Under the pieces are notes generated by a model. The model saw only the letters and a list, made by a program, of their open reading frames with translations. It made no database searches and was not told the DNA's origin. The position numbers and the translations under genes were made by a program. DNA of 64,000 bases from Alphaproteobacteria bacterium (GTDB taxonomy: Bacteria; Pseudomonadota; Alphaproteobacteria; MPNO01). The stretch's first letter is position 1, and every line of letters begins with the position of its first letter. The stretch covers positions 1,920,001-1,984,000 of the forward strand of contig OZ219866.1 of NCBI GenBank assembly GCA_964291675.2, in the 5' to 3' direction. Below, in pieces: positions 7,241-21,174 of the stretch.

Positions 7241-7965
7241 CTTCGACAGGGGCTTACATGGATGGGTTGACGGGCGGTTGGCTGGCGCAGACTGCCGACG
7301 GGAACGCCGCCCCGCCTGCCCCCTCCCGTCATGCCGGGACTTGATCCACTGCTGTCCGGTTTAGATTTTCGACGCGGGCTCCGCGCCCGTGAGCATCTGC
7401 ATCTCCGCTCCCGCTGTTACCCCTACGTCATGGCCGGACTTGATCCGGCCATCCACGCGGCCTCTCCGCCCGCACGACGGTCCGACGAGAGGGGCGGCGG
7501 CGCCCATGGATGCCCGGATCAAGTCCACTGCTGTCCGGTTTAGCCTTCGACGCGCGTCGCGCCCGGCGTTTCCCGCCCCATCACCATGCCTCCCCCCATC
7601 GTCATGCCCGGCGCCCGGATCAAGTCCGGCCATGACGGGGTGGGGGTGGCGGTGGAGAAGCACGGGAGCCGGGTGCGGCCCGCCCCGCCCGTAGGTGCCC
7701 GGAACGAGGCCGGGGTGACAACGGAGGGGCAGGGACGGCAAGTGCGGGCGTGCGGCGATCCATGTCCCGATCCGGCGGATGCGTCGATATCCCGCCCGGA
7801 ACAAGGCTTTGCGCCCGGTCCAGCTCATATGAACCGGACAGCAGTGGACTTGATCCGGGCACCCACTGGCACCGCCGCCCCTCCCGGCCGAGCGCCGTGC
7901 GGGCGGAGGGGCTGCATGGGTGGCCGGATCACCCCCGGGCTTGATCCCGGGGCCCGCCATGACGG
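7241..7965. mobile_element. REP/MITE mosaic with terminal inverted repeats CCACTGCTGTCCGGTT ... AACCGGACAGCAGTGG
   Basis: Left-type ends at ~7346 and 7525, right end at 7832-7847, each abutting a REP core GGA(CTTGA/TCAAG)TCC; homologous blocks at 11890-12460 and 17613-18018. Confidence 0.8.
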
Positions 7966-11889: not shown

Positions 11890-12462
11890 CCACTGCTGTC
11901 CGGTTTAGATGCGCTGGATCGGGCGCAAAGCCTTGTTCCGGGCGGGATATCGGCGCATCCGCCGGATCGGGACACGGATCGCCGCACGCCTGCACTTGCC
12001 GTCCCTGCCCCTCCGTTGTCACCCCGGCCTCGTTCCGGGCACCCACGGCCGGGGCGGGCCGCACCCGGCTCCCGTACTCCTCCACCGCCACCCCCACCCC
12101 GTCATGGCCGGACTTGATCCGGCCACCCATGCGCGGACTTGATCCGCGCAACCACTGGCGCCGCCGCCCCTCTCGTCGGACCGTCGTGCGGGCGGAGGGG
12201 CTGCGTGGATGGCCGGATCACCCCCGGACTTGATCCGGGGGCCGGCCATGACGTAGGGGTAACAGCGGGAGCGGAGATGCAGATGCTCACGGGCGCGGAG
12301 CCCGCGTCGAAAATCTAACGGCCGCGGGCCGGGCACCGGACAGCAGTGGATCGAGTCCGGGCATGACGGAAGGGGGCCGGGCATGACGGGGTGGGGCGGG
12401 GCGGCGTTCCCGTCGGCGGTCTCCGCCAGTCGACCGCCCGTCAACCCATCCATATAAGCCCC
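11890..12462. mobile_element. Inverted copy of the REP/MITE mosaic
   Basis: TIRs at 11890 and ending at 12349; sequence is the reverse complement of blocks within 7241-7847. Confidence 0.8.
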
Positions 12463-17314: not shown

Positions 17315-18018
17315 GTATCGAAGGGGGCTTATGCCGAATACTTGACGGGCGGGTGGCCAACGACACTTCTTCCGTCATGCCCGGCCCCCGGATCGAGTCC
17401 GGGGGTGACGAGGGGGGTACATGACGAGGTGGGGCAGCATGGAAGCATGGGGAGCGTTCGGGCGCTCGGGCACGACGCCGGGGTTCGCCGGCGGGCACGC
17501 CGCAGATCGCGCCGCGCGGCCGCGCCGCTCCCCGTGACGCCCGGCCCCCGCTCCTTCTCCCCGTTACTCCACCGACTCCCCCGCTACTCCCCCCGTCATG
17601 CCCGGACTTGATCCACTGCTGTCCGGTTTAGCCTTCGACGCGCGTCGCGCCCGGCGTTTCCCGTCCCATCACCATGCCTCCCCCCATCGTCATGCCCGGA
17701 CTTGATCCGGGCATCCACTGGCGCCGCCGCTCCTCCCGACGGGGCGTTGTACCGGTGGCGCCAGTTGTTGCGCGGATCAAGTCCGCGCATGGGTGGCCGG
17801 ATCAAGTCCGGCCATGACGGGGTGGGGGTCGCGGTGCAGGAGTACGGGAGCCGGGTGCGGCCCGCCCCGGCCGTGGGTGCCCGGAACGAGGCCGGGGTGA
17901 CAACGGAGGGGCAGAGACGGCAAGTGCGGGCGTGCGGCGATCCGTGTCCCGATCCGGCGGATGCGCCGATATCCCGCCCGGAACAAGGCTTTGTGCCCAG
18001 TCCAGCTCACATAAACCG
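17315..18018. repeat. REP/MITE mosaic whose MITE right end is interrupted by IS110
   Basis: TIR at 17613; body matches 7525-7835; the terminus continues at 19925-19937. Confidence 0.85.
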
Positions 18019-18360
18019 TCATGGTCTCGGCGGTGCTGAGCCACCCCGTGGCATGAAACTCGGGGCGTTCGGCTGAGGGTTTGCCGATCGTCGCGCGGGT
18101 CTGCCGTGGCAGGATGGGAATGGTGGAGGCGGCGACGCGTGAGCGTTCCGTTTATCGGTGATGTGGTTCCCGAGATATAAACTGCTTCCGGCGGTCGGCT
18201 CCGCACCCCGTACTGTGCCCGGCCCGCGGCCGTGGACGCGCGGCAAATCGAACCGCACCCGCTCGACGGGTGCGTGTCCTTCCGACCGCTGTCCCCGCCT
18301 CCACCGTGGCGATGCCACGGCGCGATCCTACGCCGCCGTGGCGAGAGCGCAACGAGGAGG
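18019..18360 (+). ncRNA. Candidate bridge RNA region (non-coding left end of IS110)
   Basis: ~350-bp hairpin-rich leader upstream of the recombinase, the position of bridge RNAs in IS110-group elements; RNA boundaries not determined. Confidence 0.55.
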
Positions 18361-18366
18361 ACAGCG

Positions 18367-19617
18367 ATGAAGACGGAAGGCTTGCACGTCGTGCGGCCGC
18401 GCGCGGCGGGTCTGGACGTGCACAAGATGGAGATCACCGCGACGGTTCGCCTGTGCGAGGGCGAGGGCGAGCCGGTGGTGGAGACGCGCTGCTTCAGCTC
18501 GCTTCCGAGCGGTCTGGCGGAGATGGTCGCCTGGCTGACCGGTCGCCGCGTCGAGGCCGCTGTCATGGAAGGGACCGGGATCTACTGGCAGGCGCCCTTC
18601 GCGGCGGTGGAGGCGGCGGGGATCGAAGCGATCCTGGTGCACGCGCGTCAGGTCAAGCAGTTGAAGGGGCGCAAGACCGATGTCGCCGACAGCGTGTGGC
18701 TGGCCTGCGTGTGCCAGTTCGGGCTCTGCACGCCTTCCCATGTTCCCCCCGAGCCGTTCCGGGAGCTGCGCTCGCTGAGCCGCCAGCGGCGTACCCTGGT
18801 CAGGCAGCGCTCGACCGTGCGCAACCGGGTGCAGAAGATCGTCGACCGCGCCGGCCTGCGCATCGGCGGCATCCTCTCCGACGTCTTCGGCGTCAACGGC
18901 CGCAAGATCCTCGACGGGCTGGCGCAAGCCACGCCGCGCGCGGTCATCCTCGCCTCGCTCACCGGCCACGTCGCCAACAAGCTGGAGGGGCTCGGCGAGG
19001 CGCTCTCCCTGAGCCTGGGCGACAACGACCGCTTCATGCTCGGCGATCTGCTGGACGAGCATGACGCGCTCGAGGCGCGCATCGCGTCCTACGGCGAGAA
19101 GATCGACCGGCAGATGACGCCGTGGCAGGAACAGCTCCGCCTGCTGACCACCATCCCCGGCATCGACCGCATCGCCGCCTCGACCATCCTGATCGAGATC
19201 GGCCCGGATATCGAGGCGTTCGCCTCCAAGCAGCACTTCGCCGCCTGGGCCGGGCTCTGCCCCGGCAACAACGAAAGCGGCGGAAAGCGCCGCAACGCGC
19301 GCACCCGAAGGGGCTCCAAGACGCTGCGCGCCAGCCTCGTCGAATGTGCCCACGGCGCGGCCCGAACCAAGGGGTGCCAGTTCGAGGCCCACCACCGCGC
19401 GCTCGCCGCCCGGCGCGGATACAAGCGCGCCATCGTGGCCAGCGCACACAAGATGCTGCGCATCGTTTATGTCGTGCTCAAGACCGGCAGGCCCTACTAC
19501 GACCGCACCGCCGACTACGACGCGCTGATGGTCAAGCGCAACGCCCCGCGCTGGATCCGAATGCTCCGCCGCTACGGCTACATCCAACCCCGGCGCGCCG
19601 AACCCAAGGCCACCTGA
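18367..19617 (+). CDS. IS110-family DEDD recombinase/transposase
   Basis: GLDVHK, MEGTG, KTDVADS, TIPGI, ESGG serine motif; RBS GAGGAGG. Confidence 0.97.
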   Translation: MKTEGLHVVRPRAAGLDVHKMEITATVRLCEGEGEPVVETRCFSSLPSGLAEMVAWLTGRRVEAAVMEGTGIYWQAPFAAVEAAGIEAILVHARQVKQLKGRKTDVADSVWLACVCQFGLCTPSHVPPEPFRELRSLSRQRRTLVRQRSTVRNRVQKIVDRAGLRIGGILSDVFGVNGRKILDGLAQATPRAVILASLTGHVANKLEGLGEALSLSLGDNDRFMLGDLLDEHDALEARIASYGEKIDRQMTPWQEQLRLLTTIPGIDRIAASTILIEIGPDIEAFASKQHFAAWAGLCPGNNESGGKRRNARTRRGSKTLRASLVECAHGAARTKGCQFEAHHRALAARRGYKRAIVASAHKMLRIVYVVLKTGRPYYDRTADYDALMVKRNAPRWIRMLRRYGYIQPRRAEPKAT

Positions 19618-19628
19618 CCGGCCCGCAT

Positions 19629-19924
19629 AACGCCGGACCGCCGCGCGGGACCGCTTCGGGCCACATCGGGGAAGTCCACCGCTCGTCTCGCCGCCCCCTT
19701 CCGGCGATCTCAGCCAACTCCCTCCCGGCGTTGGATGGGGCCCTCGCGCGCCCCCACCGAAACTGTTTCACGGCAACGCCGGACCGCCGCGCGGGACCGC
19801 TTCGGGCCACATCGGGGAAGTCCACCGCTCGTCTCCGCCGCCCCCTTCCGGCGATCTCAGCCAACTCCCTCCCGGCGTTGGATGGGGCCCTCGCGCGCCC
19901 CCACCGAAACTGTTTCACGGCAAC
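19629..19924 (+). repeat. Tandem duplication of the IS110 right end (~146 bp, two copies)
   Basis: Copies start at 19629 and 19775 and differ by one C. Confidence 0.95.
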
Positions 19925-19998
19925 CGGACAGCAGTGGATCGAGTCCGGCCATGACGAGTGGGGGTGCCGGCGGTGAGTTCGCGGCGGCCCGCGCGCCC

Positions 19999-21174
19999 CT
20001 ACAGCAGCGCGTTGTTCGGCGCGAGCCCGGCGGCGATGCGGCCGAACTCGGCGCCGTTGATGTCCCAGGAGAGGTGGATCTGGTGCGCCGCGGCGTGGAT
20101 GTCGCGGTGCTGGCGCTGGAGGTCGCTGGCGAGATAGTTGGCCCTGGCCCCGCAGGCGCCGTGGATCAGGTCGACCGCCTGGACGCAGCAGCGCGCGGCC
20201 CAGGCGCCGTTGCGCCGCCAGCGCGCGCGGTCGATCAGCGGCAGCCGCTCGCGCCCGGCGATCAGCGCCTCGGCCTCCAGGCAGTCCTCGCGCACCAGCA
20301 GGCGCGCGATTTCGACGAGCTGCGCCGCCTCGGCGAGCTTGAGCTGGATCGTCACGTGCTCGGCGACGCGCGAGCGGTTGTAGGTCGAGACCTGCTCCCT
20401 GAGATGGGCGGCGTAGTCGTCATACGCGGCCCGGGCGGCGCCGATCATCGGGGCGGCGACCAGATGCGGGATCAGCGGCAGCAGCGGCAGGCGGTAGGCG
20501 TCGCTCATCCCCTCGGTCTCGGGCGGGTAGCCCTCCCGCGACGGCGCCATGTCGAGCACCATGTGGGCCGGCAGGAACAGATCCTCGCAGGCCACGTCCT
20601 TCGAGCCGGTGCCGACCAGGCCGGAGACCTGCCAGGTGTCGATGATCTCGATGTCGGCGGCGCGCACCAGCACGATGCGCGGGCCGGGCGCGTCGTCCTC
20701 CGGGCCCTGGCCGATCGCGCCCAGCATCATCCAGTCGCTCGAATCCACCCCGCTCGCATAGGGCCAGCGCCCGGTCAGCCGATACCCGCCCTCCGCCGGG
20801 GCGAGCCTGCCGGCGGGGAACACCAGGGTCGAGCCGATCAGCGCGTCGGGGTCCTCGCCCCAGATGTCCTCGGCCGCCCCGGCCGGCCAGTAGGGCAGCA
20901 TCCAGTTATGCGCGACCAGGTTGATATAGACCCAGGAGGTGGCGGCGCAGCCGCGCCCGAGCTCGATGGTCACGTCGATCATCAGCCGGTAATCGGTCTC
21001 CACCCCGCCATAGCGCGCGGGCTTCAAGATGTTCCACAGCCCGGCCGCGCGCAAATCCGCGATCGTCTCGTCGGGGATGCGGCGGATGCGCTCGGCCTCG
21101 GGCGCGCGCTCGCGCAGCACCGGGATCAGGCCGCGCGCGGCGTCGAGGATTTGCTCGCGGGTGGGGTGTGTCAT
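19999..21174 (-). CDS. Flavin-dependent monooxygenase, acyl-CoA dehydrogenase fold (HsaA/HpaB-like)
   Basis: GRW.YASG.D, W...GL.GTGS.D, LQRQHRD.H motifs. Confidence 0.88.
   Translation of the reverse strand: MTHPTREQILDAARGLIPVLRERAPEAERIRRIPDETIADLRAAGLWNILKPARYGGVETDYRLMIDVTIELGRGCAATSWVYINLVAHNWMLPYWPAGAAEDIWGEDPDALIGSTLVFPAGRLAPAEGGYRLTGRWPYASGVDSSDWMMLGAIGQGPEDDAPGPRIVLVRAADIEIIDTWQVSGLVGTGSKDVACEDLFLPAHMVLDMAPSREGYPPETEGMSDAYRLPLLPLIPHLVAAPMIGAARAAYDDYAAHLREQVSTYNRSRVAEHVTIQLKLAEAAQLVEIARLLVREDCLEAEALIAGRERLPLIDRARWRRNGAWAARCCVQAVDLIHGACGARANYLASDLQRQHRDIHAAAHQIHLSWDINGAEFGRIAAGLAPNNALL

What the first reader, a model, noticed from the sequence alone, without database searches (positions are those of the whole stretch)
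12311..12349. IS110 target site carries a 16-nt insert copied from the IS110 non-coding (bridge RNA) end
Seen: the intact MITE end reads AAAATCTAAACCGGACAG (reverse complement of ~7352-7370). Here it reads AAAATCTAA[CGGCCGCGGGCCGGGC]ACCGGACAG, with the insert at 12319-12334. With its flanking A and AC, the 19-mer 12318-12336 is the exact reverse complement of 18215-18233 in the IS110 left end. The insert lies within the same AACCG core where the full IS110 is inserted at 18014-18018. Known: IS110 recombinases use a bridge RNA and normally excise without a scar. Inference: a footprint of aberrant bridge recombination, such as capture of a guide-RNA or donor fragment at the cut site through 1-2 nt microhomology, or collapse of an inverted insertion. 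I do not know of a description of such templated scars.
Basis: partly seen in the sequence, partly recalled or inferred. Interest (0 to 1): 0.85.

Follow-up and report, generated by a model that had tools for sequence, protein, structure and literature searches.

The report
IS110-derived scar at its target site
Sixteen bases from a mobile element's guide-RNA gene have been copied, in reverse, into the spot on a nearby repeat where that element normally inserts, which looks like the scar of a failed insertion attempt.

Summary
One MITE end (window 12310-12343) carries 16 extra bases (12319-12334). With its flanking A and AC, this is the exact reverse complement of 18215-18233 in the left end of an IS110-family element. 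In the 4.8-Mb genome the 16-mer occurs 9 times: once in each of 8 IS copies and once here. A 16-mer of this genome matches the IS by chance at about 2.5e-5 to 5.6e-5. Among about 90 comparable target sites, the only interruptions at this point are the 8 IS copies and this insert.

Comparing 16 related IS lineages places the source between the target guide (LTG, 18175-18182) and the donor guide (LDG, 18241-18247) of the bridge RNA. It lies in a sequence-invariant hairpin 3 nt upstream of the LDG. The insert lies inside the A-run where crossover occurs. Its polarity fits extension of the free 3'-OH of the nicked target top strand on a template of bridge-RNA sense.

My best reading is a scar of an abortive IS110 attack followed by short templated synthesis. 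Whether the template was RNA or DNA is open. This is a single event, unconfirmed by reads, and I found no counterpart in four related IS-bearing genomes. My literature searches found no description of such scars.

The parts
12200..12460 (+). Composite MITE copy that carries the insert. It is built of modules that recur through the genus.
   Evidence: 42 matches in G000 and matches in 11 of 11 other genomes of the genus; flanks identical to other copies.
12310..12318 (+). Left target half, AAAATCTAA. It ends with the first two A of the AAA crossover run and matches the IS target guide at 7 of 8 positions (ATCTAAAC against AUAUAAAC).
   Evidence: One of the 8 IS copies (C1:829228) sits in the same ATCTAAACCG type of site.
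12319..12334 (+). The 16-nt insert CGGCCGCGGGCCGGGC, the reverse complement of IS positions 18217-18232. With the flanking A (12318) and AC (12335-12336) the match is 19 nt.
12335..12349 (+). Right target half, ACCGGACAGCAGTGG: the third A of the run plus the conserved repeat end.
7250..7437 (-). Uninterrupted copy of the same MITE. Its end at 7352-7369 reads AAAATCTAAACCGGACAG on the minus strand.
18016..19923 (+). Nearest IS110-family copy, 5.9 kb from the insert and in the opposite orientation to it. The boundaries are ambiguous within the A-runs 18013-18015 and 19922-19923.
   Evidence: 8 copies, 99-100% identical. (PF01548 + PF02371).
18125..18302 (+). Predicted bridge RNA. Outer stem S1 is 18125-18136 / 18291-18302. 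Stem S2 is 18190-18198 / 18282-18290. The distal stem-loop is 18254-18274.
   Evidence: 88.9% of cells paired against 37-48% when slid, and 7 pairs with compensatory changes over 16 lineages.
18175..18182 (+). Left target guide (LTG), AUAUAAAC. It has the same sequence as the top strand of the left target flank.
   Evidence: 59 of 64 variable positions match the left flank in 16 lineages, with contiguous matches of 6-8 nt.
18215..18237 (+). Hairpin H3, GUGCC-CGGCC-CGC-GGCCG-U-GGAC, the source of the copy (19-mer 18215-18233, 16-mer 18217-18232). The stem is invariant and the loop variable across lineages.
   Evidence: 7 of 8 stem pairs never vary.
18241..18247 (+). Left donor guide (LDG), CGGCAAA. 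It has the same sequence as the last bases of the IS right end.
   Evidence: the G/A position agrees with the right end (CACGGCAA, CGCAGCAA, CACAGCAA) in 16 of 16 lineages.
18288..18294 (+). Candidate right target guide, GCUGUCC, complementary to GGACAGC of the right target half. It is not supported by covariation.
   Evidence: The motif is unchanged in lineages whose right flanks differ.
18367..19617 (+). Recombinase ORF, 416 aa.
19629..19924 (+). Two tandem units of about 146 bp in the right end of this copy only.
   Evidence: the other 7 copies have one full unit. One of them (C1:1047953) has a short repeat of the last about 14 bases.

Best explanation
The insert is the scar of an abortive attack by the resident IS110-family recombinase and bridge RNA on one of its natural target sites.

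Shown:
- The site is a bona fide target.
- The insert sits inside the crossover A-run.
- The insert is an exact copy of 16-19 nt of the bridge-RNA gene.
- The copied top strand is complementary to the bridge RNA.

Inferred:
1. The recombinase cut the target top strand, leaving a 3'-OH on the left half (...TCTAA(A)) and a protein-linked 5' end on the right half.
2. Strand exchange with a donor failed.
3. A host polymerase extended the free 3' end for 16-17 nt on a template of bridge-RNA sense. The template was either the bridge RNA in the complex, whose donor-binding domain normally receives this very 3' end, or the displaced coding strand of the IS DNA. Synthesis started at the bulged U18233, 8 nt upstream of the donor guide.
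4. The extended end was rejoined to the right half at A|CCGG or AC|CGG.
5. Replication fixed the 16-nt loop.

The insertion separates the two halves of the target and so destroys it.
For: (1) Source. The match is an exact 19-mer, found only in the 8 IS copies and here. The chance rate is 2.5e-5 to 5.6e-5 per 16-mer.

(2) Site. Among the target-like repeat ends the only interruptions are the 8 IS copies and this insert. None other was found in 12 genomes of the genus. The left flank matches the LTG at 7 of 8 positions, like one occupied site.

(3) Crossover in the A-run. Junctions of G008 copy L047, the G078 copies and the tandem IS-IS junctions fit only a model in which the IS starts after the A-run.

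(4) Polarity. In IS621 the top strand is cut first, leaving a 3'-OH on the core and a 5'-phosphoserine. Cleaved intermediates accumulate when exchange is inefficient. After exchange the target 3' end pairs within the donor-binding loop (passages of PMC11208158, and PMC13626964). The copied strand here is the top strand and is complementary to the bridge RNA, as that predicts.

(5) The source hairpin lies in the domain that holds the donor guide, 3 nt upstream of it.

(6) The copy is 100% identical to the IS and the MITE flanks are unchanged, so the event is recent.

(7) No Ku or LigD primase-polymerase was found. This argues against end-joining capture of a free fragment. Seven intact reverse-transcriptase ORFs are present.
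Against: - This is a single event.
- No orphan copy of the hairpin was found in four related IS-bearing genomes. In G078 all 48 of 48 IS-type hits lie in IS context. G079, G080 and G081 also have none.
- Microhomology is minimal: 1 nt on the left and 2 nt on the right. The bases behind the primer end do not pair with the template.
- If the cut lies after the third A, as the IS621 geometry suggests, one base must be trimmed before priming.
- The template is a stable G+C hairpin.
- An RNA template needs a reverse-transcribing activity that has not been shown to act here.
- Proximity to an IS copy is only weakly informative: 9 of 90 empty target-like sites lie within 6 kb of one.
- The right target guide and right donor guide of this family were not identified, so the geometry is borrowed from IS621.
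- The insert is not confirmed by reads.
Confidence: 0.5

Rival explanations
1. Template switching during replication or repair, without the recombinase. A nascent strand stalled in the structured MITE jumped to the IS copy 5.9 kb away, copied 16-19 nt of the quasi-palindromic hairpin, and returned.
For: The nearest IS copy is only 5.9 kb away and in the opposite orientation, as an inter-strand switch requires. The source is a hairpin-forming quasi-palindrome. The junctions have 1-2 nt of homology.
Against: It does not explain why the switch happened inside the 3-nt crossover run of an IS110 target, nor why the template was the guide-RNA gene of the very element that targets that site. Proximity is weak evidence (9 of 90 sites within 6 kb). 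Local templates match at most 10 nt.
Confidence: 0.18
2. A product of the recombinase alone. Two successive half-match or pseudo-site reactions moved a mini-segment of the IS bottom strand into the target. Alternatively, a circle integrated through a pseudo-donor site in the hairpin and was then excised imprecisely.
For: Half-match recombination, partial sub-element circles and direct top-strand transfer are reported for IS110 elements (sections read of 10.64898/2026.08.31.748434; passages of 10.64898/2026.08.14.744561; section of 10.1101/2025.10.25.684509). On the IS bottom strand the left flank of the segment reads TCCACGGC, close to the right-end terminus TTCACGGC.
Against: Neither boundary of the segment has the AA(A) core or a full arm match. 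The LDG needs CGGCAAA, and the segment has CGGCCGC. Two rare events would be required. The neighbouring IS copy is intact, 100% identical over 402 nt to other copies, so a reciprocal exchange with it did not persist. Sixteen nt is far too short for a circle.
Confidence: 0.12
3. An assembly or consensus artefact, or a minority allele of the sampled population.
For: No read support could be obtained. The genome scores 93.7% complete and 6.7% contaminated, which suggests an assembly from a mixed sample.
Against: The insert lies deep inside a 3.66-Mb contig, between flanks that are colinear with other MITE copies. An assembler or polisher has no known way to place 16 exact bases of a distant repeat at a single point.
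Confidence: 0.07
4. Coincidence. An unrelated G+C-only 16-nt insertion happens to match the IS.
For: G+C-only 16-mers recur by chance. This one occurs 11 times in 9 of the other genomes of the order, and the reversed control is as frequent. Other 19-nt chance matches to the IS exist in this genome.
Against: The per-site probability is 2.5e-5 to 5.6e-5 for the 16 nt, before counting the three further matching flank bases and the position in the crossover run of that IS's own target.
Confidence: 0.03

Closest known systems
IS621 / IS110 bridge-RNA-guided recombination, including half-match off-target events and direct top-strand transfer
   Same: The recombinase domains are the same. The guide RNA lies in the left end, with a target guide and a donor guide that covary with their DNA partners. 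Insertion is into a repeat end. Tandem IS copies and tandem right-end units match those reported (passages).
   Different: The products described so far are whole or partial elements joined at donor-like boundaries. Here an internal 16-19 nt of the guide-RNA gene, in reverse orientation and without donor boundaries, sits at the target. In this family the donor-guide domain is nested inside the stem that closes the target loop, unlike the side-by-side loops described for IS621. The contrast rests on passages seen.
Templated insertions at DNA breaks (polymerase-theta end joining, synthesis-dependent microhomology-mediated end joining, replication template switching)
   Same: A short insert identical to a sequence elsewhere, with 1-2 nt junctional homology and an inverted template.
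   Different: Those processes are known mainly from eukaryotes and use templates within tens of bases of the break (listing and abstracts only; otherwise recalled). Here the template is 5.9 kb away or is an RNA, the break would be made by an RNA-guided recombinase, and the genome shows no Ku or LigD.
Prime editing and RNA-templated break repair; template switching by group II intron reverse transcriptases (recalled, not read here)
   Same: A nicked DNA 3' end extended on the guide RNA of the enzyme that made the nick. Very short priming homology.
   Different: No reverse transcriptase is part of the IS110 system. Whether RNA was the template is unproven. The seven reverse-transcriptase ORFs in the genome are only circumstantial.
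Classical transposon excision footprints (recalled)
   Same: A few extra bases are left at a site visited by a mobile element.
   Different: Footprints consist of terminal bases of the element or of the target duplication. This insert comes from about 200 nt inside the left end. IS110 elements are described as excising without a scar (passage of PMC11208160).

Membership tests
IS110 family, IS110 group (the element that supplied the sequence) | [quoted passage not shown] | tested here: met
   PF01548 E 2.3e-22 and PF02371 E 3.6e-23, both above the curated cut-offs.
IS110 family, IS110 group (the element that supplied the sequence) | Left non-coding end longer than the right end, encoding a structured RNA with guides for target and donor | tested here: met
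   The left end is 18016-18366 (about 350 nt). The right end is about 160 nt in single-unit copies. LTG matches 59 of 64 variable positions. LDG is concordant in 16 of 16 lineages. The structure is supported.
IS110 family, IS110 group (the element that supplied the sequence) | Right target guide and right donor guide pairing with the top strands | tested here: inconclusive
   A 7-nt candidate, GCUGUCC, complements the right target half but does not covary. The G078 copies have unrelated right flanks. No right donor guide was found.
IS110 family, IS110 group (the element that supplied the sequence) | Sequence-specific insertion at a short core, with no terminal inverted repeats | tested here: met
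   All 8 of 8 copies lie in the same repeat end...TAAA|CCGGACAG. A 7-bp subterminal inverted repeat (ATGAAAC in the left end, GTTTCA in the right end) does exist and covaries. This is closer to the long repeats described for the IS1111 group (passage).
IS110 family, IS110 group (the element that supplied the sequence) | Circular intermediate and expression of the RNA | not testable with these tools
   No RNA run holds the locus. Tandem IS-IS junctions in G078 give the expected donor junction only indirectly.
Templated insertion at a break | Insert identical to a template elsewhere, with junctional microhomology | tested here: met
   19 of 19 nt match, including 1 nt of shared homology on the left and 2 nt on the right.
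Templated insertion at a break | Template close to the break | tested here: inconclusive
   The nearest copy is 5.9 kb away. 9 of 90 empty target-like sites are as close. The best local match is 10 nt.
Transposon excision footprint | Residual bases derive from the element termini or from a target duplication | tested here: not met
   The source is internal, about 200-217 nt from the left end, and is inverted.
Common genomic repeat or MITE subfamily feature | The 16-mer recurs in MITE ends or independently in the genome and in relatives | tested here: not met

The most novel reading that the evidence does not exclude
The bridge RNA itself was the template. The 3'-OH of the target top strand, made by the recombinase and delivered into the donor-binding domain of the RNA, was extended by a cellular reverse-transcribing polymerase for 16-17 nt and resealed. 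This would be a natural, prime-editing-like side reaction of bridge recombinases that writes guide-RNA sequence into the target.
Probability: 0.25. Interest if true: 0.85.

Novelty: new variant of a known kind. Interest (0 to 1): 0.62.

Why it matters
Bridge recombinases are being developed as genome editors, on the premise that they rearrange DNA without breaks or scars. A natural target site carrying a copy of the guide-RNA gene suggests that stalled reactions can be resolved by templated synthesis, leaving a specific and predictable lesion. If that is general, three things follow:
- It gives a signature to look for at on-target and off-target sites.
- It gives a way to detect past failed attacks in genomes.
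- It gives a handle on which nucleic acids sit next to the cleaved target end in the complex.

The comparative work here also defines the guide layout of a little-studied branch of the family. In that branch the donor-guide domain is nested inside the target loop, and an invariant hairpin lies next to the donor guide.

Tried and rejected
- Rfam search of 17600-20100: no relevant family.
- Single-sequence folds of the left end: z-scores of -1.2 and -0.7, uninformative. I used comparative analysis instead.
- Reads. One search for runs and one laying. X22 and X23 hold only related repeat pieces, X24 laid nothing, and X1 held only repeat pieces. No contig spans the insert, so there is no verdict.
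- Metagenome contig scan for the junction: 0 matches.
- Right target and right donor guides. I compared several candidate stretches with the flanks of 16 lineages and found no consistent covariation. They are left unassigned.
- A 'core = CG' model (dinucleotide after AAAC). Rejected because the right junctions of L047 and the G078 copies lack it.
- Inverted IS insertion followed by two deletions, and a double inversion with the neighbouring IS. Rejected as unparsimonious, and because the neighbouring IS is intact.
- End-joining capture of a free fragment. Disfavoured because no Ku or LigD was found. The genome is 93.7% complete, so their absence is not proven.
- Orphan hairpin copies in G078-G081: none. 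That search would only have found fragments containing CCCGGCC-NNN-GGCCGT.
- Supplementary files of the papers were not consulted. Supplementary tables of Durrant 2024, Xie 2026 and the IS621 human-cell paper may list aberrant products that bear on 'not described'.
- Literature searches behind 'not described' are. Passages were read, and sections.

Full report
**The observation**

The plus strand at 12310-12343 reads AAAATCTAA, then CGGCCGCGGGCCGGGC, then ACCGGACAG. The same MITE end at 7352-7369 (minus strand) lacks the 16 bases. Positions 18215-18233 read GTGCCCGGCCCGCGGCCGT, the exact reverse complement of 12318-12336. The window is C2:1920001-1984000 of a two-contig, 4.8-Mb genome with 69% G+C.

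In that genome the 16-mer and the 19-mer each occur nine times: eight in copies of one IS, and once here. The 48 bases upstream and the bases downstream of the insert are identical to other copies of the repeat.

**Chance**

Of 4,793,561 genomic 16-mers outside the IS copies, 120 match the 1.9-kb IS on either strand (2.5e-5). Of 17,996 G+C-only 16-mers, 1 does (5.6e-5). The IS holds only 8 G+C-only 16-mers among 3,552 distinct ones.

Two points limit how much the match alone can carry:
- Four other 19-nt matches between the IS and unrelated DNA exist in this genome.
- The 16-mer itself turns up 11 times in 9 of the other genomes of the order, always in unrelated contexts and about as often as a reversed control.

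A match somewhere would therefore mean little. A match at this site does not fit chance.

**The site**

Many repeat families in this genome end in ...TAAACCGGACAGCAGTGGA. Eight IS copies, 99-100% identical, all sit at that point in one 318-bp repeat type. The left junction reads ...TAAACCG|TCATGG and the right junction reads ...CACGGCA(A)ACCGGACAG.

Of 109 sites with the right half (1 mismatch allowed), 14 lack the usual left context:
- 3 IS right junctions
- this insert
- 4 single-base variants
- 6 unrelated non-repeat sites

Of 7 sites with the left half GTCGAAAATCTAA, only this one is interrupted. A gapped-pattern search of the 12 genomes of the genus found no other interrupted core.

**The element and its RNA**

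The ORF 18367-19617 carries PF01548 and PF02371, the pair that defines IS110 recombinases (passage of PMC11208160). Seventy-nine related loci at 59-99% protein identity were fetched. Their boundaries were found by comparing copies.

I aligned the left ends of 16 lineages. The alignment shows:
- The eight bases at 18175-18182 (AUAUAAAC) track the left flank. 59 of 64 variable positions match, with contiguous matches of 6-8 nt. This is the left target guide.
- CGGCAAA at 18241-18247 tracks the last bases of the right end. The G/A position agrees in 16 of 16 lineages. This is the left donor guide.
- A structure with an outer stem (18125-18136 / 18291-18302), a second stem (18190-18198 / 18282-18290) and a distal stem-loop (18254-18274) pairs in 88.9% of cells, against 37-48% when slid. 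It has 7 pairs with compensatory changes.

The donor-guide domain is thus nested within the stem that closes the target loop.

The copied 19-mer is most of a hairpin at 18215-18237 that lies 3 nt upstream of the donor guide. Its stem is invariant in all 16 lineages (7 of 8 pairs never vary) while its loop varies. I could not identify the two right-hand guides.

**Where the crossover lies**

The bases CCG after the AAA run belong to the IS, not to the target. Three observations show this:
- A G008 copy (L047) has the left junction ...CTAAACCG|TCATGG but the right junction CACGGCAAA|GGAGAAC.
- The many G078 copies have a constant left junction and unrelated right flanks after CACGGCAA(A).
- IS-IS junctions in tandem arrays read CACGGCAAA(A)CAGTCATGG.

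Crossover is therefore within the A-run. The insert splits that run as TAA^A.

In IS621 the top strand is cut after the two-base core, leaving a 3'-OH on the core and a 5'-phosphoserine. The bottom strand is cut four bases to the left (passages of PMC11208158). With that geometry the insert lies inside the exchange region.

**Mechanism**

The top strand of the insert is complementary to the bridge RNA. That is the polarity expected if the free 3'-OH of the left target half was extended on a template of RNA sense.

In IS621, cleaved intermediates accumulate when strand exchange is inefficient. The target 3' end normally moves into the donor-binding loop. The copy here starts 8 nt upstream of the donor guide.

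One reading reproduces the sequence exactly:
1. The end ...TCTAA pairs its last A with U18233.
2. Seventeen bases are copied, from 18232 down to 18216.
3. The product is joined to CCGG at the canonical cut.

This reading needs one base to be trimmed first if the cut is after the third A.

The template could be the bridge RNA, or the coding strand of IS DNA displaced during transcription. The sequence cannot tell them apart.

The genome shows no Ku or LigD primase-polymerase (completeness 93.7%). It has seven intact reverse-transcriptase ORFs. These are circumstantial.

**Rivals**

- A recombinase-independent template switch to the IS copy 5.9 kb away fits the inverted orientation. It leaves both the site and the identity of the template unexplained. 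Proximity itself is weak evidence: 9 of 90 empty sites lie within 6 kb of an IS.
- Two pseudo-site reactions by the recombinase are conceivable, given half-match recombination, partial circles and direct strand transfer. But the segment's boundaries lack the A-run core, and the neighbouring IS is intact.
- An artefact cannot be excluded without reads, but no assembly process would produce it.
- Local templates explain at most 10 of the bases.

**Limits**

The case is single. No orphan copy of the hairpin was found in four related genomes, including one with 48 IS-type copies.

Searches of the paper library found no description of scars at IS110 targets templated by the bridge RNA or the IS (passages).

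**Verdict**

The insert is a recent copy of the bridge-RNA gene placed in the crossover run of one of that element's own targets. It is most likely the scar of a failed insertion attempt resolved by short templated synthesis. The nature of the template is open.

Noticed in passing
window 19629-19924: The right end of this IS copy carries two tandem units of about 146 bp. The other 7 copies have one full unit, and one of them (C1:1047953) has a short repeat of the last about 14 bases. Tandem non-coding repeat units beside IS110 recombinase genes are reported in a 2026 preprint (passages).
   Followed up: partly
G078 (genome of L052), e.g. C11:48318-55407 and C16:27382-30933: Whole IS copies stand in head-to-tail arrays spaced 1768-1769 bp apart, with up to five in a row. 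The genome has 48 IS-type hairpin hits. The IS-IS junction gives the donor junction CACGGCAAA(A)CAGTCATGG.
   Followed up: partly
window 18053-18059 and 19912-19918: ATGAAAC in the left end is complementary to GTTTCA(C) near the tip of the right end. The C/U and G/A positions change together in all 16 lineages. This may be a subterminal inverted repeat or an extra pairing. It is closer to the repeats described for the IS1111 group, although the guide RNA here is in the left end.
   Followed up: partly
L052-L124 (G078 copies): In this lineage the left flank is constant ((A)CAAAAC) but the right flanks are unrelated. Targeting seems to rest on the left guide alone, as in the half-match recombination described for IS621.
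   Followed up: partly
G000 C2:3605209, C2:2113092, C1:316826: Three other repeat ends have single-base changes right at the crossover: TAAAC-GGACAG (one C missing), GAACCGGGACAG (one extra G) and TAAACTGGACAG (C to T). I did not test whether small lesions are enriched at this point.
   Followed up: no
G000 C1:829228, C1:545567 and window 18016-19923: Three of the 8 IS copies have two A instead of three at the right junction (CACGGCAA|CCGG). This points to variable register within the A-run, or to targets with a shorter run.
   Followed up: no
G000, seven places (e.g. C1:916937-917635, C2:2337221-2337889): Seven intact ORFs with a reverse-transcriptase domain fall into two size classes, 564 aa (3 copies) and 513 aa (4 copies). 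They are probably multi-copy retroelements. I did not examine them.
   Followed up: no
window 11901-12166 (minus strand): A copy of the 318-bp repeat type that hosts all the IS copies lies next to the scarred MITE, with an empty, intact target end. The locus is a cluster of such repeats.
   Followed up: no
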